A stretch of 64,000 bases of DNA from Octopus sinensis (lineage: Eukaryota): positions 22,642,464-22,706,463 of the forward strand of contig NC_043011.1 in the NCBI RefSeq assembly GCF_006345805.1, in the 5' to 3' direction. This document shows positions 1,351-64,000 of this stretch, piece after piece (position 1 is the stretch's first letter; each line of letters opens with the position of its first letter). Under the pieces are notes generated by a model. That model was given only the letters and a program-made list of their open reading frames with translations. It had not been told where the DNA came from and did no database searches. A program made the position numbers and the translations under genes.

Positions 1351-1874
1351 TAGTAACATGAACTTCTAACTTGTCTCTTGAGGTCTCTGGGTGAGACTTG
1401 GAGTCAACTTGAACAAAAGAAAGCAAAAGTCAAACATGTAGTAGTAGTAGTAGTAGTAGTAGTAATATAAATAATAATAATAATAATAATATAATTTTCT
1501 ATAAGAGACAATTCAACTTTTAACTCTACAAATCTCACACTCTCTATTTGTCACCATCTTTGTCACTCTCTCTCTCTCTCTCTCTCCCTCTCTCTCTCTT
1601 TATATATGCATTAACTCTCGGGCATTACTTTCATTTTATTTAAAACTTCTTTTAATGTTTATTCTCAGTTTTATGACAGCTATTACAAATCCTGTTTTCT
1701 GACTAGGTAAATATGATCAAACTTTGAATATCTGTAATATTTTTCTAAAACTTTTTTCCCGAATTAATGAATCACAAACTCAGATCGTGCCTGAAAAAGT
1801 ATATCAATATACCAAATTTGAAAATGTTCACTCAATCTTAAAATTTCAAAATTTGTGACAGGGACAGAAAAAGA

Positions 1875-1944
<70 letters not shown>

Positions 1945-2200
1945 AAAGATATAAGGTACTCAGAAATCTTGATGGTTTTATATTTACAGATTTTTATTAA
2001 TATGTCACATGTCTTTATAAATCATATATTAGCACTTGCATCTACTCTAGTAGTCTACTAGAGTAGATGCAAGCGCTAATATATGATTTATAAAAACATG
2101 TAACATTAATAAAAATCTGTAAATATAAAACCATCAAGATTTCTGAGTACCTTATTTCTTCTAATCTATAATACCTGTACATCACCTCCAAACCTTCTAA
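1945..2200. mobile_element. (TA)n-adjacent palindromic element, family B
   Basis: ~105-bp inverted arms centred at 2054 plus unpaired tail TAATACCTGTACATCACCTCCAAACCTTC shared with 62759-63340. Confidence 0.7.
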
Positions 2201-3489
2201 TATACCGTCTACCAAATCCACTCACAAAGCTTTGGACAACCTGAGGCTATAGTAGAAGACACTTGCCCAAGGTGTCATGCATTGGAACTGAACCCATAAC
2301 TATGTGGTTGGGAAGCAAGTTGTTTATCTCATGCATTTTGTCATGGTAAACTTCCTCACTCTCTATAAAAGTATATTGTTCTCGCTGAGTCTGCATGAGT
2401 TTGTCAATGTGTGTGTATGAATGTGTGTAAGGAATTTCATTGGGATAACAGAGTGTTTTAAAAATGTATGTAAAAGATAATTTATTTTAATAGCATATTT
2501 TTCTGTTACTAAATGTTTTTTCTTACACAGACACACACACGCGAACTTGCTTAGTGCAAGATGAGGGTTAAACATTTAAATTACAAATATTTTTGTTGTC
2601 GCTTCAATCCTAGCAATGGACCACTGCATCATCATTCCATAAAATGTGTTTATAGGGAGAAAAATATTGAAAAACATCAGTACGTGTCAGAGTGACAAAA
2701 AGAAAAAACAATCAAGGTACCAGGTGGTCGAGGGATTTGCTACAAACAACAGCTAAAACTCTCTTAAATCGCACATTATAAAAAAAAATTATTTTTAAAA
2801 ATTCCAAAAGAAAGCCAAAATTTTAGAATTTCAGGTGAGCTGGGTGGCAAGCTTAATGAAAACATTAAAAAAAATTTCACTATTCTTTTCAAATTAAGTT
2901 TTATTTTCTGTTTGAAAATAAAGTAAGTGGGAATTGTAATGGTCTTCGCAAATTTTCAAAATTTTTTAAAGGCTTCTCCTCTCATTTTTGAAAAAAAATC
3001 ATTAGCCAAAATTGGTACTGAGTGGGGGAGGGGAATGTGACAAAAATTCATAATTTTCCAAAATTCTTCTTTTTTTTTTACTAAAAAGGCATTCCCCATT
3101 CTTAAGTGCATAGTGAACCAAAAAAATTGACAAAATCAGTGCAGAAGTGAGGGTGGGATCCCTAAATTTTCTAATATATTTTTTCATTAAAATCTTTCCC
3201 CCAAAATTTGCAAGGGGGTGATAAAAAATCAAACTGGAAAATCATCGTCAGAGCAGAGAAAACCCAACTTATGTGGGAGTGTTATTCCGAAAATCCATTA
3301 AGACATCCTATTGCAAAATTTACTTAGCAATGTCAGGATATTCAGCTAATGTTCATATAAATATGAACACATACATATAAACACATACATACATACATGC
3401 ATACATATATACATATTTTATTATATATATATATATTATATATATACATACATATATATGTGTACATACATAGATATATTCATGCATTC

Positions 3490-48060: not shown

Positions 48061-49236
48061 CTACAGCTCAGTCCTTTGCTTAAAGAATACTGGACGTTCA
48101 GGATGAGCCGATGTATTTAACCTGTCTGATACCTCTTTATCACTACTGTTAACAAAAGCAAGTGAGTAAGTATTATCTGTCTTTCCAGTGGCATTGATCA
48201 AATCATCTTTCCGGTTAGTGTTTTCGCTTCCGCGCTCCAAGTCAGACAGGTTATTACTCTTGGAGGAAAAATTAAAAAGGGGTACAATTTTCTTCTTGTT
48301 ACTAGTTGTCGATTCTTCTTCAAAAGGCAGCTGGCTTGTCACTGCCCTCTGTTCATCTCCAGCCTGTCTCTGATTCGGTGTATTATCAACGGTAAATTTT
48401 TTATATTGGTTTACATTTACTTCTAAGGTCGTTCGAAAGGTGTCGAGCGGGTTTTTGAATTCAGCCGAACTATCTGTTTCTTTGTTCTTTGTTTGGTTCA
48501 ACGTCCTCTCAGTTAATCCTAAATGCTGTCCTCTGTTCAGAATGTGTGTGTTAATTTGACTTTGAAGCTGGCGGCGTTTACGTGATTTCAGTGACGTTAA
48601 TGGTTCATCATCGTCCGAGATTGGTTCTGTGGAGGCTTCTCCTTCGTCTACATTGCTCCCATAAGGCTCAGTTTCAGGAATGTTTATTGCCATCTGGGAA
48701 CCTTGAAGGTTTACGTCCTCGAGCTTTTGATTCTGATTTTCTGCATCTGATAAAATACGGTCTAGGTTATCAACTAAACCTTTTATTTGGGGGTTGTTGT
48801 TAGTTTTGGTGTTTTCTGATTCAGGTTTTGGCTCAGACCATTTTTCTAAAATATTTGTTGATTTACCAAAATTATTTTGTGCATCGTTTCCAATATTTTC
48901 TACATTCCGATCCTTTGAACTGTGATCACCATCATCACTATCATCAAAAGCATCGTTAATATGTCCTTCCAGTTCTAAGCTTACCGAACCAGGATTTGAT
49001 CTACGAATATATACACCACTGTCCAAAGTTTCACTTGTACTTTGCATTGAATCCCGGTGTGATGCTGTCTTATTCCTAAACTGGGCTTGGATTCGCTCAA
49101 ATATTTCCTCAACGCGAGACTTCGGCTCGAGTCCAATACGGAAAAATCCGATCTTACCTTCGTCAATTTTTCGGCAGTCGACCACAGTTGAAGCAGAGTT
49201 TGCAAAGGAGGGCCCATCACATAAAATTCCATCGCA
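48061..49236 (-). CDS. Terminal exon: end of YrdC domain (CDGILCDG...STVVD...FRIG) plus ~340-aa low-complexity tail ending QRTEL*
   Basis: CAG acceptor 49239-49237, phase 0; 1176 nt to TAG stop; DG, STVVD and RxG motifs of YrdC. Confidence 0.9.
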   Translation of the reverse strand, partial: CDGILCDGPSFANSASTVVDCRKIDEGKIGFFRIGLEPKSRVEEIFERIQAQFRNKTASHRDSMQSTSETLDSGVYIRRSNPGSVSLELEGHINDAFDDSDDGDHSSKDRNVENIGNDAQNNFGKSTNILEKWSEPKPESENTKTNNNPQIKGLVDNLDRILSDAENQNQKLEDVNLQGSQMAINIPETEPYGSNVDEGEASTEPISDDDEPLTSLKSRKRRQLQSQINTHILNRGQHLGLTERTLNQTKNKETDSSAEFKNPLDTFRTTLEVNVNQYKKFTVDNTPNQRQAGDEQRAVTSQLPFEEESTTSNKKKIVPLFNFSSKSNNLSDLERGSENTNRKDDLINATGKTDNTYSLAFVNSSDKEVSDRLNTSAHPERPVFFKQRTEL

Positions 49237-49613
49237 CTGAATAGAAAATAAAATCAATGTTCAATCAACTATAAAATATTCATAAAAATAGCTTTCAGAC
49301 ATATTAGTGCACAATAAAGAAAGCTAGGGGAACTGAGATATAAATACGAATTTTTTCTTTTTCATTTTTCTTTGCTTTTTCTATTTTGTGTGGGTGAAAG
49401 TACGTCGGTGATGCAAGTGAAAACGACGCACATCAAAATAGGATTACAAAACTAGCGTCCGAAATGGCGAAAGTGGAACAGAGAGAGTCTGTCTAAATGG
49501 TGAGTGTAAAACAATATGATAGAAGTTGAGTTTGTGAAAATAAAATAAAACGAACAGGTCTAAGGGACATAACTCATTAAACCTTTCTGAAATCATTTGA
49601 AGTTATCAACTCC

Positions 49614-49645
<32 letters not shown>

Positions 49646-50378
49646 TGTATGTATGTATGTATGTATGTATGTATGTATGTATGTATGTATGTATGTATGT
49701 ACGTACGTACGTACGTACGTACGTACGTATGTATGCATGCATGTATGTATGTATGTATGTATGTATGTATGTATGTATGTATGTATGTATGTATGTGTGT
49801 GTGTGTGCATGAGTGTATGCGTGCGCGTGTGTCTATGTGTATCTGTAAAGCATGCGCGCTCCCACATACACATATATATATATACATATATGTATATACA
49901 TATATGTATATACATATATAATTAAATACACTAATATGTGAACGTATGCGTATATAAAGAACGTTTACAAACTAATAAATAAATTAATTAACAATAAAAC
50001 TGAAATGAAATACAATCAGTGAGTGTGCGTTTATTAATTACATAAGCGGAGAATACGAATCAGCTTGGATTGTTCTGTTTTTGGAGAACCTCTACATTTC
50101 TAAGTTTCCACGTAGATCTTTTATAACGTAGCCTATGATAATACGAACAAATGAAAATCTACAGCCTGGACATCAAAGCTGTACGTATTTCATCAGTTTT
50201 GCATAGACGTACGCCTCACATCCGTTGGGCAGCTGATCTCTACAACGGTACACACTTTTTACTTTCTGTCTAATACAACTCTATCAGATTTTCAACTAGA
50301 TTTTCAATAATATTTCTTGAGTGATCGATCAATGTTAAGAAAATAAATCCACTAAGGGAGTTGATGCATCCAACTTAC

Positions 50379-50584
50379 ATTTTTCAGGCCCAACTTGGCA
50401 ATAACCTGCAGATGGTGCGTAGTGTCTGCTTCACCAGTAGGATTAGCAGACGACGTTGATACGGGACCCGTGTGATCGATTAAGAATGACGTCACCATAT
50501 TATCGGGCATGCGTACTGCGATGCTGTCAGGTCTACCAATGTATTTGCCGGCATATCCAACACCCAAGCTGTCTAACCATGGTC
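50379..50584 (-). CDS. Exon: YrdC domain (GPWLDSLG...SIAVRMPD...GPVSTSSANPTG...LGLKN)
   Basis: TAG acceptor, GTAAGT donor, 206 nt, phase 1/0; IAVRxP and TSSAN motifs. Confidence 0.92.
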
Positions 50585-50816
50585 CTAGAGAAGAAATAAA
50601 AGAATAATATTGATATTTTGTTTTGTTTTTCTTTTTTATTATTCTAACAGAAATTTTACAATTTTGTCACGAAATAATATCAAACAACAAGTAAACTCCT
50701 ATTAAGTCGCTTAATCCACAAGAAATAGCACTCAGAGTATCTCAAATTCTATTTTAATATCTTAAAACAGAGGAGACCCATTGGACAATGTAGTCCTTGA
50801 TATATAAATAGACAAG

Positions 50817-51405
50817 AAGGCGGTGAGCTGGCAGAATCGTTAGCACGACGGGCGAAATGCTCAGCGGTATTTCGTCTGAGTTCAAATTCCGCCGAAGTCC
50901 ACTTTGCCTTTCATTCTTTCGGGGTCGATAAATTAAGTACCAGTTACGCACTGGGGTCGATGTAATCGACTTAATACCTATGTCTGTCCTTGTTTGTCCC
51001 CTCTATGTTTAGCCCCTTGTGGGTAATAAAGAAATAGGTATTTCGCCTGCCGCTACGTTCTGAGTTCAAATTCTGCCGAAGTCGACTTTGCCTTTCATCC
51101 TTTCGGGGTTGATAAATTAAGTACCAGTTATGCACTGGGTCGATGTAATCGACTTAATCCGTTTGTCTGTCCTTGTTTGTCTCCTCTGTGTTTAGCCCCT
51201 TGTGGGTAATAAAGAAATAGGTATTTCGTCTGCCGCTACGTTCTGAGTTCAAATTCCGCCGAAGTCCACTTTGCCTTTCATTCTTTCGGGGTCAATAAAT
51301 TAAGTACCAGTTTCACACTGGGATCAGTGTAATTGACTTTATCCCTTTGTCTGTCCTTGTTTGTCCCCTCTGTATTTAGCCCCCTGTGGGCAATAAAGAA
51401 ATAAG
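50817..51405 (+). mobile_element. Head-to-tail trimer of SINE family B (intronic)
   Basis: One head followed by three ~185-bp bodies joined at AAAGAAATAGG/TATTTCG. Confidence 0.82.
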
Positions 51406-51557
51406 GTAGTCAACGATGGAATTTTTTTTATTGTAATCTACACAAGTCTAGTTGACATGAGGTTAAACAGCAACATAAACATATGATTGGAAACCTTTAG
51501 TCAATGACGCTATTGCCAGTAATAAGCATGAAAAATATGTGTAAATATTAAACTAAC

Positions 51558-51717
51558 CTTTGTTTACTACACAGGATATCGTAGACGGCCATACGGCATT
51601 CATGAAGGCCCACAGCATCTCACCGAATTGCTCTCGTCCAGCGGCCAGTTGGTTTACATTGGATATCCACATAGACATTGGTCTGTCTTCAGCTAGTTTC
51701 TTAGTTAAGTATGCTCT
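51558..51717 (-). CDS. Exon: YrdC domain (RAYLTKKLAEDRPMSMW...AVWPSTISCVVNK)
   Basis: TAG acceptor, GTTAGT donor, 160 nt, phase 0/1; aligns with YrdC K.R...P and WPGPLTL.L segments. Confidence 0.9.
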
Positions 51718-53123
51718 CTAGACCCAATAAAGGTAGACAAACAAAATATAATTATTCAATAGCTAACAAAAGAAGCCAAAATTTCTTCAAAGCAAGATCT
51801 CTTTTTATTAACAACATAGACGGTATATCAAATAACATACAAAATTTCTGGTTTATTAAAATTACCTCTGCCACTAGAGGATGTATCATGATTATCAAAT
51901 AGCAATTTAGACCAGATCTATGTAAGGGGAGATAATCCAATTCCAAGAATAAAGAATTTTCCAGAATTGGTATATCACGAGAGGAAAGGACAAACTTAGA
52001 GTCTAGTGATAAGAGGACAGTTGTTAAACGTGTTTCTACCTTAATATGTGTCACCAGTACGGCAATTGTCCAGCCTTATCTTCAGTAGCCATGGGACTTA
52101 GACTTATAAACAAACACTAGAATCAAGAATTCTCCTTTAAAGAAAATAGCACGGTCTCTATTGCAATATGTACACCATCATACTTTGTGTACAGATAATT
52201 TATATCAACGTCTTTATACCATTTATTTAATCAATGTCTTTCTTATACCATTTTTATCACTAAGGTTTTGATTATAACATTTACATTATCAAAGTCACAG
52301 TTATAACATTTATATCATTATCAGTGAATCTTATAAAACATTTTATATAAAATTTATATCATTAAGGTCTCTATAACACCACTTGTACCATCAAAGTATT
52401 TAATATAACATTTATATCATAATTTTTTCTATTATGTATATCATTAATGCTATGATAGGATTTTTTTATCAATTTGTCTCATTAAAATCTTTGAAATAAA
52501 ATTTCTAAGATAACTTTTATATCATCATGATTTATCCTATATACTTTACGTGAAGTGAAATATTTCAAGTCTTGGTACAAGGCCAGCAATTTTAGCAGAT
52601 GGGTGTTAGTCGATCACATCGACTCCAGGACTCGAGTTGTATTATATTTTATCGAGCCAGAAAGGATAAAAGGTAAAGTTGACCTAGGCGGTATTTGAAT
52701 TCAGAACGTAAAGAGTCAAAAAGTGTGATATTTAACGTTATGTTTGATGCGCTAACGATTCCGCTAGTTCTCTACCGTCATAAGACGAAATATAGGTTTC
52801 AAATTTTGGCATAAGGTTAACAATTTTTGGGGAAAGGGTTAAGTCTATTACATCGAACCCGAAAGGATAAAAGGCAAAGTCGAACATCAGAACGTAAAAA
52901 AACGGACGAATTGCCGCAAAGCATTTTGTCCAGTGCGGTAACGATTCTGCCAGTTTGTCACCGTCATTAGAAGAAATGTTACAAAAAAAAAAAAAGACTA
53001 ATATATTGAATCATAGTAGATTATCTACTCTTGTAGTAATTGTGTAATGCTGCCATTTATACACGATACACATTTTTAAGACAGTTTAGGTAATAATAAT
53101 AGTAATAATAATAATAATAATAA

Positions 53124-53510
53124 TGTCCCTTAGTGGCTGACGATATGTGCATCTCTGATCACGAGCAGAAGTAGTGGGAGAGCATCATAGCCATATGTTG
53201 AGAGGGATTCTTTGGGGTTTGAATAATTCACCTCTGGAAACATGGGTGGTTCTTTCAACATCCTTAAACAACCCTTATTCTGGGACCGTTTGAGCGGGAT
53301 GGGCTACTCAACCTGAAGAAAATTCTAACTGGGCCCCACCTGCAAGGTCATGCGCTGTTTACCTTGATATGAGATCACCATGTCGCGCACATATGGTTGT
53401 GATGCATGTGCCTGGTGTACCCTTATCAGACGGGTAGTCATGATGGGTATACTGGGCTTCGTATATTTTACCCCAGTGTCACTTTGATGGCATGAACTGC
53501 TCTCTCACTC
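53124..53510 (+). mobile_element. Non-coding retroelement 3' fragment inserted in (TAA)n
   Basis: Complex-sequence block flanked by (TAA)n on both sides; consistent with Dong/R4-like targeting (inference). Confidence 0.5.
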
Positions 53511-53603
<93 letters not shown>

Positions 53604-53639
53604 AAGAAAATTAATTATAATAATAATAATAATAATAAC

Positions 53640-53675
<36 letters not shown>

Positions 53676-54139
53676 CCCCCCCCACACACACACACAAAAT
53701 TAAAACGCGTATTATACTTCGCAACAAATTTATTCATGAACTTTTATGGTATTTCAATATGGTATATGTTGAAGCAGTGTTCTTCAATCATTTTGCTCTT
53801 GGGAACACTTGAAATAAATACTATATTTCAAGGAACTCTTGACATGAAAAAATATTATACATATTTATTAATCTTTTTCTTTCTTTTTCATAGAATAAAA
53901 CTTTATAAGAAATTCTGAAAAATCATAGGACTGTCTTTGAAGGATTTGGCAATGCTAAATCCATTAGATGCTACAAAAAGTGTATAAGGAATTTCGTCTT
54001 AACAAGACGTTGTTTGAACCAAATTCCCATACGGTTTCCTATTAAACGCTCATTTTTCCGCAGGACCTCCCTATTACTTACAGGTGCAAGTATTTCGAAT
54101 ACGCTATGCGTGAATAATTGTTTCTAATCTAATAATAAT

Positions 54140-54588
54140 TGCTGTGGAAAGCGCAGGTAGGCATGCCAGATTGCTCGAATGCCTGACACACGACTACCCA
54201 AAAGACTGTTTTGCAGTGAATTGACAAAAAGCAAGCGCACACGAAGTGAGCAGAAAAGACGCTTGAAAGATACACTCAAAGCCTCACTGAAGTGCTTTCA
54301 GATCAATCCCTGGGAAATGCAAGCACAGGACCGCCCTGCCTGGTGTAGCTGCACCAACAGAAGTGCCACCTTCTACGAACTGAACTGGCTCGCAGGAGAC
54401 CCAGAAAAGCTTGAGTGGCGCAAGTCCAGAGCCAACTCCTTGCCTTCATTCCCAGCAGACCACCATTGCCCGTCCTGCGGCAGAACTTTCCGAGCACACA
54501 TTGTTCTGATCGGCTACGGCCGGATGCACCGTGATCCATCTTCTCTCATGTGATGCCCTTGGTCAACGTCGAAACGACGGACGAACAT
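54140..54588 (+). mobile_element. RTE-clade LINE 3' end
   Basis: MPDTRLPKRLF.SEL...KRRLKDTLKASLK...CPSCGRTFRAHIVLIGY. Confidence 0.8.
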
Positions 54589-54590
54589 TA

Positions 54591-55083
54591 CCCTAAATCC
54601 TCGAGTATAATCAGCGTTTTTTTCCCAAACTTTAAAGGTCAAAATCCCTAGTGCGTACTATATACGAGGTTAAAAATGAAAAATATTTTCTAAGCAATGT
54701 CTGAGTTTGTCCGGCAATGTTTATTCAGACGCGAAAATATCTTAAGCTAAGCCTAAAAGCAATGACGTCATAAAAGAATCATCCATAACTTGCAGTAAGC
54801 AACATTTATAAAAATAAAAGTATTAAGAACACAGAATAACATATAACAAAAACAATTTGCAAACATATTTACATTCCCATATAACAGTTAAGAACATCAC
54901 CATTATTGTAGTACGCATGCGCGGAAGTGTTTGTTCGACTAGGTGCTGCTGGCTTAATTACGTACGACTCAAGTTAGAAAAGGGGTGCGTATTATACACA
55001 TGGTTTAGGTTTTTCAGAGGTACAACCCCCTAAAAATCCCCTGCGTATTATACTCAAGGGCGGACAAACTCGAGGATTTACGG
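54591..55083. mobile_element. Tc1/pogo-type MITE
   Basis: CCCTAAATCCTCGAGT / ACTCGAGGATTTACGG TIRs flanked by TA. Confidence 0.75.
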
Positions 55084-55144
55084 TACATAATTATTGCTAT
55101 ATGCATACAGTGAAACAATCTATTTAATGTAACAATCAACTTAC

Positions 55145-55233
55145 TTCCACTGATTCAGGGAATTTTACTGCAGCCGCCAATACATAAACAGTGTCTGTTG
55201 GAATACCGACGATCCCTCCTCGGTTCATGATGT
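55145..55233 (-). CDS. Exon: N-terminal part of YrdC/Sua5 domain (DIMNRGGIVGIPTDTVYVLAAAVKFPESVE)
   Basis: CAG acceptor 55236-55234, GTAAGT donor from 55144; 89 nt; phase fits upstream exon; GGIV.IPTDTVY.L is the YrdC signature. Confidence 0.92.
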
Positions 55234-56154
55234 CTGAAAAAATGTGGTGAAACGTCGTTTTCAATTTATTTGATACAACAAAGAACAATACTGTTTTGTT
55301 TAGTTTTTATCCAAATGTTATTAATCACCAGTTTAATTATGCTAGTTTTGATGTTTAGCTCCCGATCAGGCCAGGTCTTTTGTTTACTTATTTATTTTTT
55401 ACGGTTTTTTTTTTTTTTACTTTCTTCTTCAGATAGTGTATCTAGAACAATATAGGTAATGTAAATACTAGGATGTGATTTGGAGAAGATTTGACTGCTA
55501 TTTTTAACAGCTCGAGTGACCACGCAGACAGAACTATAATCATCCCCGTGAAGAAATTTCAGGTTGCGTAGGGAAAATTCAGAGAATTTTGTGGGGAAAA
55601 TTGCTATTAGGCTGAAAAATCATTTACCATTGTTTGCAATATTTTTTTTATTAAACATATTTTACTTATGTTAATTTTAAGGACGATAATATTAAATCAA
55701 TATAAAGCGGTTAATATTGTGCAATAAATTGCATTTATACCGGACGATTTTTTTTTTTTATGTAGTGATGGAGAATTAGGAAATAGGTGATGCTGAACAG
55801 GTAAAAGGTGCAAATACAGAAAAATGAAACGGTTATGAAACATTCCTTCCATATTTCAAAGATGAACTGTTTTGCCTACCCATGCCCCATGCGGTTCCAT
55901 GGCCTGAGCCAATGAGTAATGGAGGTATAGCCGTATGTCAGCTCTGATCAAGCAGACCTTTAGGACCAACTGCAAAGGTTGAGAAGATTCGAAACCGAAA
56001 CCACATTTTTTTTTCATTGTCAGATGGATTTCCGGTCTTTCGTTTCCGACTCCCTGTTCTTGGATGATTTGACCTCGGAGACCTTCTGTGGTCGTGGAAA
56101 GGTTAATCCTTTGTTTTAGGATTGACCTACTTTAGTTGCCAAACTATATATATA

Positions 56155-56203
<49 letters not shown>

Positions 56204-56204
<1 letters not shown>

Positions 56205-56447
56205 CGGAGTAAACACATAAATGTGAACAAGATGGAAAAAAGAGTACTCAAATACCAGTGGTAGAGTAATATGCTTTATTTAAAGCAGCAGAAAATTCAA
56301 CAAAACCTGTTACTCTGAGTTTCATGTTCCCGTTCGTCGGACAGTTTTTGCTAGAATCAGTTTTTTCTAGCAAAAACTGTCCGACGAACGGGAACGTGAA
56401 ACTCAGAGTAACAGGTTTTGTTGAATTTTCTGCTGCTTTAAATAAAG
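56204..56447. mobile_element. Second family-A palindromic element with hammerhead variant (core CCGACGA)
   Basis: Homologous to 62-320; arms 56274-56447 with short spacer; hammerhead-like 56371-56420; (TA)n on both sides. Confidence 0.78.
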
Positions 56448-56461
56448 TATATATCTATATA

Positions 56462-56685
56462 TATATATATACCCATCGAGAGGTTTGTTGAGCCTCTTTG
56501 GTATCTGCTTTCTGACCAAGAGCATCTCGGCCGAATGGCAAAAAGAGGGGCAACACACTGCTTATACTCTTTGTTTGACGGCAAAATTCACATCCTATGA
56601 CCTTCTCTAGCAGCAGACAATTAAGCTAGTTTCCCCACACGCTGCACGGCGGTCAGTCCTTCCTTTTCAAGCAAACAGTTTGTCC

Positions 56686-56777
<92 letters not shown>

Positions 56778-56998
56778 ATTCATCTAAGGACACGCGAGGT
56801 ATTTCATTGTTGTCATCCTCTTTAACCAACTAAACTGCCTGGCTACCACTAAAAGCCTTGCCGTGTATTTCTGGCCCAATGCACCAATAAAAGCTATAGA
56901 CAATATTCTTCTCTTTGATATTTATTATTACGCTGTCTCATCGACTTCGAGAATTTAATAGTAACATAGCCTGTTACATTTGGTGACTCCGGCGTGAT
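56462..56998 (+). mobile_element. LTR 3' part plus tRNA-Trp primer binding site
   Basis: AATAAA ~56886, ...TGTTACA end at 56978, TT spacer, TGGTGACTCCGGCGTGAT (16/18 to canonical Trp PBS TGGTGACCCCGACGTGAT); LTR 5' boundary uncertain. Confidence 0.65.
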
Positions 56999-57157
56999 TC
57001 GAACCTTCGTTACTTTCGACATCTCATCCCAGTCGTAACAGAAACTATTGCTACAGACTTTTTACAATTACTAGTTATGCTTATCAGAATAACTGTGAAG
57101 ATGGGAGTTGAAAGATCGACAAATTTTATTAACATTGGAGAGAAATAAGTTCCTTAC

Positions 57158-58855
57158 CTGCAATCGCTTTGACTCCGGATTGTTTTTGGGCATCTGCCCA
57201 GAAGGCTTTGTGACCCTGAGAATGGAGGAAACTGACTTCTATGATTGGGTTTCCCATTGGGAGCACATCTCGCCCCCAAACAACCTTTAAAGCAGAAGCT
57301 AAGAAACCATAAATACAAACAGCAGTAAATAGAAGCACCACGATTATTTCATATGCTTCATATGAAGGCACTGCTAAGATATTTAGCAAAAATGCCAATG
57401 CGATAAGTTCGAAAAGGAAAGTGATCAGGAACCAGGTCTTGCTTACAACTAGAGAAAGTCCTATAAGAAGTAGAAGAATGACCATATATGAAATGCTCCC
57501 CACACACATGGCCACTGAATTGTCCTGACCCAATGTCCCAAGACTGCGAGCAGTTCCAAGAATTATCCACATGGTACTAAATATAATGAATGAACAGCTT
57601 TCGAATGTAAGTCCACGAGCAAACCCTATACAACCCACGGTGAACTGTGCCACCCCGCCAAGCACAGTTGTCCATGGCATGGAGAGGAGATTGAAATTGG
57701 CAGGAATCCACAAAATAGATAAGGCAGAAACTGCATTGACGGCAAAGCCGATGGTATCAAGCTCAATATACTTGGAATACCCCATGTCGGAAAATTCAGT
57801 AGAGAACAGGCCGTCACCATTTTGTTTGGTGTCCTGTTTGTATAAACGTTTTGCACAGCAACTAAGATGTTTTTTAAGGCTCTGTTGTACTTGAGCTCGA
57901 TCAAATGGGCGTCGACCCAAAGGAAGTTTATAAGGGGTTTGTTTCATTCGGCTCATGTGAGCTGCAAGTCCATAAAGAGAAAACAAAAAGCAAACCCAAC
58001 CCATACCACCAAGGAAATGGCCTTGGACACCATCAACACAAAAGGCAATGCAGAAGATACATAGTAAGATATTCTGTAGTGCATGGAACATTTCTCGAGC
58101 TATGGAAATCAAACTGGCCAATAAAAATGTGAAAAGGAAGAAGATAAAGACAGGTAGTAGTGGTAAGTCATTTGTGCCAGAAAAATGATTAAGTGCTAGG
58201 TTGTATGCTACTGCACACCAGAATGTACCATACAGGGTAAAGTAGCAACCACAGTAAGGGTCATTCCTACGTAAAGCCACAATGCCGCACACAGCTTGAA
58301 AAAATCCCGCCGAACCGACCCACATAAAAGCATTATTGGCAACTGTTGTAGCTCCAGTCACGTGACTAGCAAAAACTGCAAAAACTATTACTTCCATTGA
58401 ATACCCTACAATAGTGTAATCGTTTGAGACGTCTGGATCAGATGACTTTCTTTTCTGCGTGGTCTTGAAATCACCCCCTTTGAATTTATTAACCAGCTTT
58501 TGGCACATCATATACACAACTAATGCAGAAAGTAGGACATAATACGCTCCGGCACTCATATGCACAGGACGCCATAAAGAGGCTATTTCGAAGATGGTGG
58601 ACAAAAAAAGACCGAAAGAAAGAACTGCAGTAAAGGTTGCTTGGTGCAAGATAGATCCAAAGACAAAAATAAGGAATATGAAGAAGAAAGCCCCATATCC
58701 AGGAAATAGAGCTTCATTTGCTGCATTGGACCAGATGGTAGGCGGCCTCGAGATATCTCTGGTGACATTGAAAACACCAACTGCCGCCCACATCGAACCT
58801 AGACATAAGAGTAAGCCACGTAACAGGGAGTCTTCAACATCTCCTGCCGTAATGC
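57158..58855 (-). CDS. Large internal exon (phase 1/1) encoding ~2.5 visible tandem GPR1/FUN34/YaaH (SatP/AceTr)-like multi-TM repeats
   Basis: AG acceptor at 58857-58856 and GTAAGG donor from 57157; open 1698 nt. SatP-like motifs: GFFQAVCGIVALRRNDPYCGCYFTLYGTFW, GGVAQFTVGCIGFARGLTFESCSFIIFSTMW, YKLPLG and WGRDVLPMG (cf. SatP GGxAQxxAG...GNTFG.TAFxSYGxFW and FGRTVLPIG, recalled from memory). Confidence 0.88.
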
Positions 58856-59359
58856 CTGAAAAAAAGAAAAAGAACTTTATAAAAATGATGTTAAAAGCTT
58901 TCAGAGTCTTTATTTGGAAAGGGAAACTTGAATTAATGACAGCTACCTGCGATCAAAATAACTAGTTTTATTTTGGCGGTTTCACTGGATCCCACCTCAG
59001 GTTATAAAAGGCGCCAGCAAATCACTCCAGAGCTTTTCATAACATTAAAATGTCAATTAAATGCTGATGAATATATTAAATTTAAGAAAATCAGGAATGC
59101 AGTTGTTTCAGTATTTTCTTTGAAAATTGTAATTTTTTTCAAATTTCCTATTATATATTCTCAGAAAAAGGCGGCAAGAAGGTAGAGTTCATTAGCACAC
59201 CGAACAAAATGCTTTGCGGCCTATAGTGCATACTTTCTTGATTCTTGCTTGCTTCATGCTCTTGCTTGATGGGGTTGGGGGTCATTCCAGGTCAGTGGTC
59301 CCAGAGATGTCATCATACATGGAGTCGACCGGGTTCACCAGTTCTCTCTATCACTGATG

Positions 59360-59700
59360 GTCCCGTGCCAGCCCCTCTCTATCCTCCAAGGTGACATCGA
59401 GCTTCGGCAAGATCTTTCCACTTGGCGCAACTGCTCTATCTCCCGGAAAGTGAAGCTCCGCATCTACAACGCATCGGCCCTCTCCATTCTCCTCTATGAC
59501 GCAGAAACGTGGCCCCTCTCGAAGACCGTAGCAAAGAGGATCGATGGCTTCGATAGCAGAGCCCTGAAAACCATCGAGAACATCAGATGGTAACATCACG
59601 TTTCCAACAAGGAACTGTGTGCGCGTGCGCATCAACCTCCAGCCTCCCATCTCATAGCTATCTGTTGCATGCGCTGGTATGGACATGTCCTCCGTCTCCC
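59360..59700 (+). mobile_element. RTE-clade LINE ORF fragment
   Basis: SISRKVKLRIYNASALSILLYDAETW...W*HHVSNKEL...RWYGHVLR. Confidence 0.8.
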
Positions 59701-59786
59701 ACCTTTAGTAGAAAGGATTATTTGATAATTCCCTTACCCGCTCCCGATAAAATTGCTGGCCTGGTACCAAAATTTGAAACCAGAAG

Positions 59787-60215
59787 CAACGAGCTGGCAG
59801 AATCGTTAGCACGCCGGGCGAAATGTTTAGCGGTATTTCGTCTGTCGTTACGTTGTGAGTTCAAATTCCGCCGAGGTCGACTTTGCCTTTCATCCTTTCG
59901 GGGTCGATTAAATAAGTACCAGTTACGCACTGGGGTCGATGTAATTGGCTTAATCCGTTTGTCTGTCCTTGTGTGTCCTCTCTATGTTTAGCTCCTTGTG
60001 GTCAATAAAGAAATAAGAACCGTTAAAGGATCTGACAAAATGATTACTGGTATTTTTTTTTATTTCATTACGTTCTGAGTTCAAATATCGGCGAGGTCGA
60101 CTTTGTTTTTCATCATTTCAGTGTCAATAAAATAAATACCATTCGAGTATTGGAGTCGATGTAATCGACTTACCCCCTCCCCTCAGTATTACTGGCTTTG
60201 TTCCAAAATTCAAAA
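59787..60215 (+). mobile_element. SINE family B copies
   Basis: Full copy ~59787-60016 and degenerate copy following. Confidence 0.78.
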
Positions 60216-60810
60216 CTATTATTTAGCCCCAGAGCTGTTCAGACTTATTAGACATCTCAACCATGACCATCATGTCTTTTTTTTTTTCGAGTAAAACTGC
60301 CATTCTTTTTTAAGATCAGATATTATTTGGCAGCTATTTCTTGCAAGTCCAGCGACTGCATAGAGATTCACTCCATTGGCCTAACTAATTACTATGCAAA
60401 TATATGGTAAACGAAACCAATTTCAATAATTTTCTTTTTTCAATTCATGATTTATTATAAAAGTACATACAGACATGAGGTTGTGAGTTCGATTCCTGGA
60501 CTGGGCTGTGTGTTGTGTTCCTGAGCAAGACACTATATTTCACTTAAGTCCAGTTCACTCAGTTGTAGAAATGACTTGCCACGTCACTGGTGCCTAACTG
60601 TATTGGCCTTTGCCTTTTCCTTGGACAACATCGGTGGCATGAAGAGGGGAGGCTGATATGCATGGGCGACTGCTGGTCTTCCGTAAACAACCGTGCCCGG
60701 ACTTGAACTTCAGAGGGGAACTTTCTAGGTGCAATCCTATGGTCATTCATGACCAAAGGAGACAACAAATTCTGCATCAGCATACCTCTTTTTTTTGTCT
60801 GAATATCTTG

Positions 60811-61340
60811 ACATACATACATACATACATACATACATACATACATACACACACATACATGCATATATACATACATGCATACAAACATACATGCATACAA
60901 ACATACATATATCCACAAACACGCACACATACATACATACGTACGTACGTACGTACGTACATGCATACATACATACATGCATGCATACATACACAAATAT
61001 ACACACACATACATATATACATACATGCATGCTTGGATGCATACATACATACATGCATACATACATACATACACATACATGCATATATACATACATGCAT
61101 ACAAACATACATATATACACACACATACATACATACATACATACATACATACATACATACGTACGTACGTACGTACATGCATACATATGTACACAAATAC
61201 ATATATACACAAATATACACACGCATACATACATATATACATACATGCATGCTTGGATGCATACATACATACATGCATACATACACACATACATATATAA
61301 ATACATGCATGCTTGCATGCATGATGCATACATACATAAA
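60811..61340. repeat. (CATA)n-based compound microsatellite
   Basis: Direct reading; source of spurious ORFs. Confidence 0.95.
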
Positions 61341-61835
61341 TACAGACAGACAGACAGGCAAACAGTCACGCCTGCATGTAAGCACGCAAAATGGTTGGAT
61401 GGATGTTGGACAGACAGACATGCAGACAGATAGACAGACAGGTAACATCAAAATAGCTCCATGTAAAACACTTACGTGATATCATGAAAGTTGTGTTACA
61501 CAAAAATATAAAATGTTGCATGTTTGTCTAAATAACGACCCAACAAATATATCAGCAAGCTTACGTGTAAAAATTAGTTGCAAGACAATAATATTTGAAG
61601 TGCAATAGAGAATTTACTGGCTGGAGAATGCTATCAGGCTGTTTTGTTATATGATACATGAAGATCATATTACAGAATATAAATGTCGTTTATATTGGAT
61701 AACATTTTCAAGGAGAAAACTTGTACTATCAAAGATAACATAGATCGAGGCACAACCTGTTGATATGTTGTAATTGACTTAGGACGACGGTCAATATGAT
61801 ATCAAAGGTGGAAATCGTGTGAGATCATAACTGTA

Positions 61836-62315
<480 letters not shown>

Positions 62316-62708
62316 TAGTCTTAAGCCTCTCGAGATGCAAATAATATTATATATGTATGCGTGAATATATGTAAGTATGCATGTGTATATAGTAACAAAC
62401 ATATCATATATATATATAATAACAAAATAATATATAAAACATATGCATATATACATACGTATATGTTCATACCTACATCTATATGTATATATACATGCAT
62501 ATATGGGTACAGGACAACAAAAAAACGTTGAACACAATGAGAAACGAAAACATAAAAACAAAAACATGGAAACGGACTTTTTTTCAAACAACGAAAAAAC
62601 AGAGTACAAGTCATACAACACAAAGAATATTCCCCTTCTTCAGTTGCCCCTGTTTCGGCTACTCCGCGTTTCGAAGGTAAGGGCAAGGCGCGACTTCGTT
62701 GAAACAGT

Positions 62709-62758
<50 letters not shown>

Positions 62759-62761
<3 letters not shown>

Positions 62762-63016
62762 GAAGGTTTGGAGATGATGTACAGGTATTATATATTAGAA
62801 AAATTGAGGTAATCAGATCAGATGGTTCATATTTGTAGATATTTATTTATATATTACATTTTTTACATATATATCATATCATTCGGATTAGCGCTTGCTC
62901 CCATTCTAGTGGGAGCAAGCGCTAATCCGAATGATATGATATATATGTAAAAAATGTAATATATAAATAAATATCTACAAATAGAACCATCTGATCTGAT
63001 TACCTCAATTTTTCTA

Positions 63017-63069
<53 letters not shown>

Positions 63070-63326
63070 TATATATATCGGAAGGTTTGGAGATGATGTA
63101 CAGGTATTATATATTAGAAAAATTGAGGTAATCAGATCAGATGTTCATATTTGTAGATATTTATTTATATATTACATTTTTTACATATATATCATATCAT
63201 TCGGATTAGCGCTTGCTCCCATTCTAGTGGGAGCAAGCGCTAATCCGAATGATATGATATATATGTAAAAAATGTATATATAAATAATATCTACAAATAT
63301 GAACCATCTGATCTGATTACCTCAAT

Positions 63327-63340
<14 letters not shown>
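62759..63340. mobile_element. Two tandem family-B palindromic elements (62759-63022, 63078-63340) in (TA)n
   Basis: ~115-bp near-perfect arms centred ~62906 and ~63224; unpaired tail TCGGAAGGTTTGGAGATGATGTACAGG. Confidence 0.75.
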
Positions 63341-63375
<35 letters not shown>

Positions 63376-63557
63376 TATTATATATACCACCTTCGGGAAA
63401 GAGGAGTGTCAGAAGAAACAAACATGAAATATTTGAAAAAATCAGCTTATCCAATTCTTTTTTCAAATATATACAATGCAATATCTATATAAGTATCATA
63501 CACACACAAACACACTCACACACAAACAAACAAACACACACACACACACACACACAC

Positions 63558-63590
<33 letters not shown>

Positions 63591-63649
63591 TATAAAGCGC
63601 CTTAGCTTTATGGCACTTAGCGAAACCAATGGATACTCAATGACCGGCC

Positions 63650-63900
63650 ATAACTCCCTTCTATACTGAGACTCCATTTGATGTGCTGCAGTATACGTAT
63701 GCTGATCTTGGGAAAGTGCCATCTCCCTTCTCTCTCGAGACTCCATCTGATGTGCTGCAGCATGCATTTTCTGATCTTGGGAAAGTCTCATCTCCCTTCT
63801 CTATTGAAATTCCATTTACGTCCTGCAGCATGTGTTTGCTGATCTTGAGAGAGGTTCATCTTATTTCTCTCTTGAGACTCTCGCCTTCGGTTTTCTACAA
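63650..63900 (-). mobile_element. Decayed 63-bp coding repeats resembling Helitron Rep/Hel N-terminal repeats
   Basis: LSQDQKMHAAAHQMESRERRE / LSQDQHTYTAAHQMESQYRRE 21-aa units with frameshift. Confidence 0.4.
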
Positions 63901-64000
63901 TCTTCCTTGCTTTATATTTGTTTCTGGAGAGATTACGTCTTTTCTATAGTGGCATAGATTTTTCAATATTGTAAGCCAAAAATTATGAACATAGAAGAAA

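What the first reader, a model, noticed from the sequence alone, without database searches (positions are those of the whole stretch)
48061..58855. Animal gene fusing triple SatP/GPR1-FUN34-YaaH channel repeats to a YrdC/Sua5 domain
Seen: five minus-strand exons join in frame through canonical GT-AG sites. They give ~1108 aa: multi-TM repeats, then PTDTVY, WPS, IAVRMP, TSSAN, STVVD and RIG motifs, then a disordered tail. Known: AceTr/SatP proteins are small acetate/succinate channels characterised mainly in microbes; YrdC/TsaC makes threonylcarbamoyl-AMP from Thr, HCO3- and ATP for t6A and is normally soluble. Inference: a membrane channel physically coupled to a nucleotide/bicarbonate/amino-acid-binding module, i.e. 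a candidate metabolite-gated transporter or transceptor of unknown function. The ORF track shows only unconnected pieces of it. Uncharacterised homologues may exist in other aquatic animals.
Basis: partly seen in the sequence, partly recalled or inferred. Interest (0 to 1): 0.85.

Follow-up and report, generated by a model that had tools for sequence, protein, structure and literature searches.

The report
Octopus channel with disarmed enzyme domain
This spliced octopus gene joins three bacterial-type small-acid channel units to a tRNA-enzyme-like domain that lacks a key ATP-binding arginine; it is one of an ancient gene pair whose fish counterparts switch on together during infection, so it likely acts as the non-catalytic partner of its intact sister protein in a predicted shared channel.

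Summary
The gene is real. The five exons join into a 1108-codon open frame. RNA-like contigs from three studies splice them into one molecule. A sixth, 5' exon lies about 0.8 kb beyond the window, giving 1166 aa (NCBI LOC118766235). Structure prediction supports three SatP-fold repeats plus a YrdC/Sua5 fold. The architecture is already in print from computation for vertebrates (Ghasemi et al., iScience 2026), and this scan noted the sister gene before in other genomes.

Not found in my paper searches: the family is two paralogs. A (this gene) lacks the essential KxR arginine in 39 of 39 aligned domains; B keeps it in 138 of 138. Both YrdC domains are equally conserved between molluscs and vertebrates (about 60%). 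Octopus has both on one contig, plus separate ordinary YRDC genes. Trees reject transfer from vertebrates. The genes carry neighbouring locus ids in several animals. The zebrafish genes bearing the two orthologue names rise about 16- and 65-fold on infection with irg1l and acod1, while yrdc is flat.

Best reading: A is a ligand-binding pseudo-enzyme subunit pairing with B in an inducible carboxylate channel. Binding, transport and catalysis are untested.

The parts
57158..58855 (-). Coding exon 2 (1698 nt): end of SatP-like repeat 1, repeats 2 and 3, and the first strand and helix of the YrdC domain (P0001 residues 58-624)
58479..58853 (-). SatP-fold repeat 1, residues 59-183 (its first helix and most of the second come from the exon outside the window); the most degenerate repeat, no NPAPLGL-like motif
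   Evidence: folded alone, best of 48161 chains is SatP 5ys3, Z 17.0, rmsd 3.1, 170 aligned; hhalign to paralog-B repeat 1, 96%
57951..58421 (-). SatP-like repeat 2, residues 203-359
   Evidence: six helices in the model; hhalign 96% to repeat 3 and 98% to paralog-B repeat 2, whose profile hits SatP at E=1.8e-10; not fold-searched alone
57249..57776 (-). SatP-fold repeat 3, residues 418-593; the best-conserved repeat of this paralog
   Evidence: SatP 5ys3 Z 20.3, rmsd 2.7, 174 aligned; profile hit to 5zug E=4.1e-8; 33% mollusc-vertebrate identity
55145..55233 (-). Coding exon 3 (89 nt): YrdC N-terminal part with PTDTVY
   Evidence: PF01300 positions 3-30; spliced join
51558..51717 (-). Coding exon 4 (160 nt): YrdC part holding K659, L661 where the essential Arg should be (codon 51696-51694), invariant R665 and W670
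50379..50584 (-). Coding exon 5 (206 nt): YrdC part with R731, S752-x-N754 and the family-specific D-x-x-H-H
49065..49236 (-). Start of coding exon 6: end of the YrdC domain (S791, R808)
48061..49064 (-). Rest of exon 6: about 330-residue N/S/E/D-rich, poorly conserved tail, likely disordered, ending R-T-E-L and the stop
   Evidence: composition; alignment; disorder inferred, not folded
58856..64000 (-). Part of intron 1; the first coding exon (Met1-Ser57) lies just beyond the window at G000:C15:22707276-22707447
   Evidence: loose ends in X1 and X3 matched once in the genome; ATG and GT donor read in L001

Best explanation
This gene encodes paralog A of a two-gene family of three-repeat SatP-fold membrane proteins, its YrdC domain lacks the ATP-binding arginine, and it likely works as a non-catalytic, ligand-binding subunit that would pair with the intact paralog B in a predicted six-pore ring moving a small carboxylate during the inflammatory response. 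Shown: the spliced gene; three SatP-like repeats and a YrdC fold (repeats 1 and 3 and YrdC by fold search of predicted models, repeat 2 by profile); the Arg lost in all A and kept in all B domains; both paralogs in molluscs, amphioxus and vertebrates; separate ordinary YRDC genes in this genome. From the literature: the SatP monomer is one pore of a hexamer, and the KxR arginine is essential in E. coli TsaC. Inferred: (1) two three-repeat chains close a six-unit ring (also Ghasemi's hypothesis, there as a dimer); (2) the ring is A+B rather than A+A; (3) YrdC-A still binds an amino acid, bicarbonate or nucleotide in a remodelled pocket and gates the pores or tunes YrdC-B; (4) the cargo is a carboxylate of the inflammatory programme, itaconate being my first candidate and a product of YrdC-B the second. 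My odds by step: not an ordinary TC-AMP synthase 0.75; heteromer with B 0.45; inducible defence role also in octopus 0.5.
For: Arg absent in 28 of 28 A domains and present in 127 of 127 domains from the B search. Over all 326 fetched proteins: 39 of 39 in-register A domains lack it (3 off-register rows dropped) and 138 of 138 B domains have it. Arg52Ala E. coli YrdC does not support growth (PMC2685093); sequences without the KRSN tetrad are filtered out as non-TsaC in PMC10321239. YrdC-A is not decaying: 59.5% mollusc-vertebrate identity against 60.5% for B. It keeps T33, K56, R121, S143, N145, S181, R195 (P. abyssi numbering) and has fixed replacements G38>V/T, P59>A, N62>R, H67>W, G96>S. Conservation of the repeats is complementary: A 19/19/33%, B 42/29/20%; in a head-to-tail A+B ring the best-kept units A3, B1, B2 would be neighbours. 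Consecutive or near-consecutive locus ids on contigs of equal length in Mizuhopecten, Nucella, Babylonia, Astyanax and Patella; same contig, 8.5 Mb apart, in this genome. Zebrafish infection data (PMC6980646 suppl. file 8): si:ch211-153b23.3 log2FC 6.04.4 4.05, irg1l 5.81, acod1 3.79, yrdc 0.27 (not significant). NCBI gives the name .3 to fish B proteins and .4 to an Astyanax A protein. SatP carries succinate (PMC8379382); that itaconate is methylene-succinate is my own knowledge.
Against: No direct evidence of A-B contact, transport or lack of catalysis. Invariant R665, at a position that binds PPi in P. abyssi Sua5 (Asn62) and is Lys in B, could replace the lost Arg. Linkage and co-induction fit a shared pathway or old tandem duplication as well as a complex; in octopus the genes are 8.5 Mb apart. 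The induction data are from zebrafish, and orthology of the zebrafish genes rests on NCBI names given to other fishes' proteins, not on the zebrafish sequences. No octopus expression data beyond presence of spliced contigs. The octopus ACOD1-like (MmgE/PrpD) gene is on another contig, C23. The X group, probably non-animal, has a single form with intact KxR (8 of 9), so the architecture can work without an Arg-less partner. Several gastropod proteins hold B-type YrdC domains in tandem without membrane repeats.
Confidence: 0.4

Rival explanations
1. A is an independent homodimeric channel or transceptor: its Arg-less YrdC domain binds a metabolite (amino acid, bicarbonate, nucleotide) and gates its own pores or signals through the tail, without needing B. 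This is.
For: Intact amino-acid/bicarbonate pocket residues and strong conservation. The tail has NPxY/F in 16 of 20 and a C-terminal [ST]-x-[LVIF] in 9 of 20 mollusc A proteins (reading these as sorting and PDZ motifs is my own knowledge). X-group relatives add a GAF-like sensor domain. A and B are far apart in octopus.
Against: Repeats 1 and 2 of A are poorly conserved while B1 and B2 are well conserved, as if each chain kept only part of the function. A and B are retained together from molluscs to frogs and co-induced in fish.
Confidence: 0.25
2. YrdC-A is still an enzyme with a rebuilt active site: R665 takes over phosphate binding and the W670/V641 pocket selects a substrate other than threonine. 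A and B are then two enzymes of one small pathway whose product (an aminoacyl-carbamoyl-AMP or its breakdown product) leaves through the fused pores.
For: All other catalytic-site residues are kept, and the replacements are fixed across 28 A domains. TsaC enzymes have relaxed amino-acid and nucleotide specificity (PMC7430679 abstract). TC-AMP decays to a reactive isocyanate (PMC9654439), a plausible defence chemistry. YrdC domains of HypF and TobZ do other carbamoyl chemistry.
Against: The Arg position is freely variable in A (L, Q, D, H, E, A, S, G), and TobZ and HypF keep KxR..SxN. No acceptor (Kae1-like) domain is present in the protein.
Confidence: 0.22
3. The fusion is a membrane-anchored TC-AMP synthase that feeds tRNA t6A, coupling substrate import to the reaction (a reading close to Ghasemi et al.).
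For: Fold and most pocket residues match Sua5; database labels say threonylcarbamoyl-AMP synthase (automatic names).
Against: The essential Arg is missing in A. The genome has separate YRDC-like genes with KxR and SxN (C21, C8223). Mammals lack the family (PMC13316224). In zebrafish yrdc is flat while the fusions are induced.
Confidence: 0.05
4. The join is a prediction artefact: a membrane gene ending at the intronic stop after 57158 and a separate YrdC gene.
For: The long exon's frame runs on to a stop at 57129. Some database entries hold only the membrane part.
Against: Single spliced contigs cross the junction in three studies. The fusion is in all 28 aligned relatives. The exon boundary falls inside the YrdC fold. 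Membrane-only entries checked are Logan or ENA contig calls or one partial NCBI model, three of seven clustering with longer NCBI proteins, which fits calls of the single long exon.
Confidence: 0.01

Closest known systems
'Vertebrate Ato' family: three Gpr1/Fun34/YaaH domains fused to Sua5/YciO/YrdC (Ghasemi et al., bioRxiv 10.1101/2025.05.26.656167; iScience 2026, PMC13316224)
   Same: Same architecture; two clades; proposed 2x3 ring; no function known. The window gene groups with fish, frog and lizard proteins of this architecture.
   Different: In the passages I read, the paper treats the YrdC domain as a possible enzyme, does not examine active-site residues (no 'catalytic' in the iScience text; no 'KxR' in its supplement text), and suggests horizontal transfer for the few protostome members. 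Here one clade lacks the KxR Arg, both clades are widespread in molluscs and present in amphioxus, and nesting of molluscs in vertebrates is rejected. I could not see its figures.
SatP / AceTr (Ato1/Ady2, Gpr1) carboxylate channels
   Same: Six-helix fold (Z 17-20 to 5ys3/5zug); repeats end in the same lP.G turn.
   Different: Three fused, unequal repeats. NPAPLGL is degenerate in A. The position nine residues after the motif start (Phe of the FLY gate in Ato1, register read from the primers in PMC8379382) is Asn/Asp/Glu in repeats 2 and 3, so selectivity may differ.
TsaC/YrdC/Sua5 threonylcarbamoyl-AMP synthases
   Same: Fold (Z 23.5 to P. abyssi Sua5); T33, K56, R121, S143, N145, S181, R195 kept; TsaC-type signature residue (Ser/Thr); no SUA5 domain.
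   Different: R58 lost; G38, P59, N62, H67, G96 replaced; family-specific insertion and D-x-x-H-H; membrane-anchored; ordinary YRDC genes exist separately.
YciO (inactive-type TsaC paralog of bacteria)
   Same: Lacks the KxR arginine; YciO does not complement sua5 or yrdC (PMC2685093).
   Different: YciO lacks both K and R and is soluble. The window domain keeps K, scores far better against Sua5 than YciO (E 1e-15 against 0.4) and is sister to B and X, so the loss is independent.
HypF and TobZ YrdC-like domains; human YRDC/IRIP as a transporter regulator
   Same: YrdC fold used outside t6A (PMC9654439). IRIP was reported to regulate transporter activity (recalled; only a reference-list fragment seen).
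   Different: HypF and TobZ keep KxR..SxN and carry a Kae1 acceptor domain; IRIP is not fused to a channel.

Membership tests
Vertebrate Ato (3x Gpr1/Fun34/YaaH + Sua5/YrdC) | Three tandem six-helix SatP-fold domains | tested here: met
   18 long helices in the model, pLDDT 84.8; repeats 1 and 3 match SatP by fold; repeat 2 by hhalign 96-98%
Vertebrate Ato (3x Gpr1/Fun34/YaaH + Sua5/YrdC) | C-terminal Sua5/YciO/YrdC domain in the same chain | tested here: met
   PF01300 89.8 bits; spliced contigs
Vertebrate Ato (3x Gpr1/Fun34/YaaH + Sua5/YrdC) | Orthology to one of the two vertebrate clades | tested here: met
   groups with Astyanax, frog, lizard and amphioxus A proteins, SH-aLRT 99-100 in quick trees; that my A and B equal the paper's two clades is inferred, its figure was not visible
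Vertebrate Ato (3x Gpr1/Fun34/YaaH + Sua5/YrdC) | Two chains form a six-unit ring (the paper's hypothesis) | not tested
TsaC/YrdC/Sua5 TC-AMP synthase | YrdC fold | tested here: met
   Z 23.5, rmsd 2.6, 204 aligned to 6f89
TsaC/YrdC/Sua5 TC-AMP synthase | KxR...SxN ATP-binding tetrad | tested here: not met
   K659-K-L661; S752-A-N754 present; Arg absent in 39 of 39 A domains
TsaC/YrdC/Sua5 TC-AMP synthase | Threonine/bicarbonate residues T33, S181, R195 (also T35, R121) | tested here: met
   T636, T638, R731, S791, R808 (positions from PMC6004061 and PMC10321239); H67 is Trp
TsaC/YrdC/Sua5 TC-AMP synthase | Makes TC-AMP; complements sua5/tsaC | not testable with these tools
   needs an assay
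AceTr/SatP channel | PF01184 above its curated cut-off | tested here: not met
   no hit for P0001; 10 of 28 A relatives at E<=0.5, best 5.2e-7
AceTr/SatP channel | NPAPLGL motif at the start of helix 1 | tested here: not met
   absent in A repeat 1, reduced to D..xG in repeats 2 and 3; kept as EPxxLG/EPMxxG in B repeats 1 and 2
AceTr/SatP channel | Hydrophobic F-L-Y constriction | tested here: inconclusive
   by motif register the Phe position is Glu212 (repeat 2) and Asn431 (repeat 3), and Tyr72 aligns to Phe in repeat 3; no residue-level structural alignment was returned, and the Leu position is unresolved
AceTr/SatP channel | Transport of acetate, lactate or succinate; hexamer | not testable with these tools
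   needs flux assays and a structure
YciO | Lacks both K50 and R52; soluble | tested here: not met
   Lys kept in 28 of 28; weak profile match; membrane-fused

The most novel reading that the evidence does not exclude
Molluscs, amphioxus and non-mammalian vertebrates keep an ancient, infection-switched enzyme/pseudo-enzyme channel pair: an A+B six-pore ring in which the intact YrdC of B makes a reactive N-carboxy-amino-acid adenylate (or senses the ATP/amino-acid state) and the Arg-less YrdC of A gates export of that product or of itaconate. This would be an unknown arm of animal metabolic immunity built from a tRNA-modification enzyme and a bacterial-type acid channel, descended from a single GAF-bearing form found outside animals and lost in mammals.
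Probability: 0.25. Interest if true: 0.9.

Novelty: new member of a known kind. Interest (0 to 1): 0.6.

Why it matters
The architecture is known only from computation and has no function. The split into an Arg-less and an intact paralog, their joint retention since the mollusc-chordate split and their strong joint induction in infected zebrafish turn an 'uncharacterised' family into a testable one: two soluble 220-residue domains to assay, two neighbouring zebrafish genes to knock out, and a short list of cargoes. It also corrects two likely errors: the automatic label 'threonylcarbamoyl-AMP synthase' for clade A, and the suggested horizontal transfer to protostomes. If the pair exports itaconate or a new reactive metabolite, it would matter for fish, amphibian and shellfish immunity.

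Tried and rejected
- Pfam on the long membrane exon alone: 0 families at E<=1. PF01184 search of the genome: no match; not evidence of absence, as both paralogs fall below it.
- No run was on record as RNA; the spliced joins carry the argument instead.
- The 3-4 junction row was crowded out of the joints table by repeat matches, so I read it from contig coordinates.
- Complex prediction (YrdC-A with YrdC-B) was not available, so A-B binding is open. The Foldseek 'pdb' list was not obtained; VIA-align was used.
- The careful whole-protein tree did not finish; the trees are quick trees with SH-aLRT only. B-amphioxus groups with B-molluscs in them, but a chordate B clade is not rejected (p-AU 0.118).
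- Horizontal transfer from vertebrates: rejected in all five constrained tests (p-AU 7e-107 to 0.032; YrdC domain, 27 rows, LG+G4).
- A third cluster gene near the octopus genes: none seen among the window's ORFs of 130 aa or more at 1-46000 (by eye). The ACOD1-like gene is on C23. The nature of zebrafish si:ch211-153b23.5 was not resolved.
- No mollusc expression paper naming this family among the 25 listed of 747 (none of the listed held 'yrdC domain-containing').
- Paper searches for the family returned only Ghasemi et al. as relevant; the library lacks most subscription journals, and that paper's figures and the bioRxiv supplements were not visible.
- The tail-motif offsets printed were mis-indexed and are not used; counts come.
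- Earlier findings by sequence: none; by place: unrelated.

Full report
1. The observation. The five minus-strand exons join through GT..AG introns into 1108 codons and a stop, identical to residues 59-1166 of NCBI LOC118766235 of Octopus sinensis, P0001. Assembled contigs of three RNA-like runs from three studies carry the membrane exon and the YrdC exons on one intron-free molecule: in X3, record positions 1783-3485 are window 57158-58860, 1533-1693 are 51557-51717 and 1328-1532 are 50379-50583, leaving exactly 89 nt for the 89-nt exon; X1 and X6 show the same spacing. Loose ends at 57158 read the start of that exon in X1, X3 and X13. A first exon of 172 coding nt lies 0.8-1.0 kb beyond the window.

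2. Domains. Pfam finds PF01300 in 28 of 28 aligned relatives and PF01184 weakly in 10 of 28, not in P0001. A profile of the family hits SatP at E=4.1e-8. The AlphaFold2 model of residues 1-832 (75 sequences, pLDDT 84.8, pTM 0.77) has 18 long helices in three groups and an alpha/beta domain. VIA-align gives Sua5 Z 23.5 for 607-823 and SatP Z 20.3 for 419-593; repeat 1 folded alone has SatP as best of 48161 chains, Z 17.0, then the urea channel, Z 14.7. Repeat 2 rests on profile alignment: 96% to repeat 3 and 98% to paralog-B repeat 2.

3. What is in print. Ghasemi et al. describe this architecture in non-mammalian vertebrates, with two clades, a few protostome members ascribed to possible horizontal transfer, a 2x3 ring hypothesis and no function (bioRxiv 10.1101/2025.05.26.656167: abstract, passages and section 3.6 read; PMC13316224: passages and supplement text; figures not visible). 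So the fusion itself is not new. This scan also noted the family twice before on other genomes.

4. Two paralogs. A PF01300 search of this genome found two ordinary YRDC-like genes with KxR and SxN (C21, C8223) and a second fusion gene on C15 about 8.5 Mb away, with three repeats and an intact K-E-R. Searching with each paralog gave clade A (molluscs, frogs, lizards) and clade B (molluscs, amphioxus, shark, fishes, amphibians, best 120 of 261 listed). The 50%-cluster search added A proteins from Astyanax, amphioxus, chiton and oyster. Quick trees separate A from B with SH-aLRT 99-100, and inside A place chordates apart from molluscs. AU tests on the YrdC domain reject all-vertebrate and all-mollusc clades and three nestings of molluscs within vertebrates. 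The duplication therefore predates the mollusc-chordate split, and transfer is not needed. A third group, from MMETSP, ENA, IMG and Logan records and probably non-animal (inferred from the source label and tree position), is equidistant from A and B, keeps KxR in 8 of 9 domains and ends in a GAF-like domain (Atlas score 0.94; PDE5 GAF E=0.003). With the outgroups also having KxR, the Arg was lost once, on the A stem.

5. The active site. The KxR..SxN tetrad binds ATP and T33/S181/R195 bind threonine (PMC6004061, PMC10321239; passages); E. coli Arg52Ala is non-functional in vivo (PMC2685093; passages). A lacks the Arg in 28 of 28 domains and B has it in 127 of 127; over 326 fetched proteins the counts are 39 of 39 (3 off-register rows dropped) and 138 of 138. 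A keeps the other pocket residues and fixes V/T38, A59, R62, W67, S96. Its mollusc-vertebrate identity, 59.5%, equals B's 60.5%. This is the pattern of a domain selected for a changed job, either binding without catalysis or altered catalysis. Invariant R665 keeps the second possibility open.

6. The pores. Mollusc-vertebrate identity by repeat is 19/19/33% in A and 42/29/20% in B. B1 and B2 keep an NPAPLGL-like motif; A does not. By motif register the FLY phenylalanine is Asn, Asp or Glu in repeats 2 and 3 (register from PMC8379382, passages). Selectivity may therefore differ from SatP, which passes acetate, lactate and succinate.

7. Context. A and B have consecutive or near-consecutive locus ids on equal-length contigs in five species; this is read from identifiers, not coordinates. 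In infected zebrafish larvae si:ch211-153b23.3 rises 6.04 log2 (row 5 of the table).4 4.05.5 3.08, irg1l 5.81 and acod1 3.79, while yrdc is 0.27 and not significant (PMC6980646: one passage and supplementary file 8 rows). .3 is also a co-expression hub with irg1l and noxo1a in PMC11140123 (passages), and .3.4 and .5 appear together in PMC8877790 (passages). NCBI applies .3 to fish B proteins and .4 to an Astyanax A protein. I had reached this co-induction before reading the earlier notes; note e1-8580461 gave the lead to look for ACOD1 linkage, which is absent here (C23), and sharpened itaconate as candidate cargo.

8. Mechanism. I commit to: A is the non-catalytic, ligand-binding subunit of an A+B six-pore ring that is induced in inflammation and moves a small carboxylate (0.40). 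Rivals: stand-alone gated A homodimer (0.25); A as an altered enzyme in a two-enzyme pathway exporting a reactive product (0.22; TsaC is promiscuous, PMC7430679 abstract; TC-AMP decays to an isocyanate, PMC9654439 passages); t6A supply (0.05); artefact (0.01). Gene structure, folds, residue states and trees are shown. Ring formation, A-B contact, ligand, cargo and an octopus immune role are inferred and untested.

9. Verdict. A real gene and a new member of a recently described, functionally blank family. The Arg-less/intact paralog split, the pre-mollusc-chordate duplication, the GAF-bearing outgroup and the joint induction of both paralogs were not found in my paper searches, which miss most subscription journals. 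Interest 0.6.

Noticed in passing
G000:C15:31238450-31253263 (L007:5952-6044, L008:344-8233, L009:1106-1264; minus strand): Paralog B of the same family, with three repeats and an intact KxR..SxN YrdC domain; its exon layout differs from the window gene (most of YrdC in one exon, the repeats in several).
   Followed up: yes
G000:C21:18031800-18033130 (L003/L004) and G000:C8223:287971-288385 (L005/L006): Two divergent ordinary YRDC-like genes with KxR and TSAN. The one on the small contig C8223 has very short introns and may be a second copy or come from another organism.
   Followed up: partly
P0173, P0176, P0190, P0297, P0300 (MMETSP, ENA, IMG records): Probably non-animal 1070-1140 aa relatives: membrane repeats + YrdC with intact KxR + a C-terminal GAF-like domain; sister to A and B.
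   Followed up: partly
P0030, P0031, P0032, P0033, P0037 (Haliotis, Batillaria, Littorina, Pomacea): Soluble gastropod proteins made of two to seven tandem B-type YrdC domains without membrane repeats; the Nucella relative P0113 (one domain) has the locus id next to B and A. Some may be assembly or annotation artefacts.
   Followed up: partly
G000:C23:14086698-14090806 (L013-L016): An MmgE/PrpD-family (ACOD1/IRG1-like) gene exists in this octopus genome, unlinked to A and B.
   Followed up: partly
window 48061-48100 and alignment A1 tails: Mollusc A tails carry NPxY/F (16 of 20) and end in [ST]-x-[LVIF] (9 of 20, including this gene's RTEL), which resemble sorting and PDZ-binding motifs.
   Followed up: partly
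window 50810-51400, 54160-54550, 59270-59700: Three or more tandem copies of a very abundant interspersed repeat fill intron 4; LINE/reverse-transcriptase-like fragments lie in introns 3 and 1 (judged by eye).
   Followed up: no
window 62750-63400: Two near-identical inverted-repeat blocks with a self-complementary core between TA microsatellites, possibly a MITE-like element or an assembly artefact (seen by eye).
   Followed up: no
zebrafish si:ch211-153b23.5 and .7 (literature only): Neighbouring genes of the same clone; .5 is co-induced (3.08 log2) and its nature was not resolved.
   Followed up: partly
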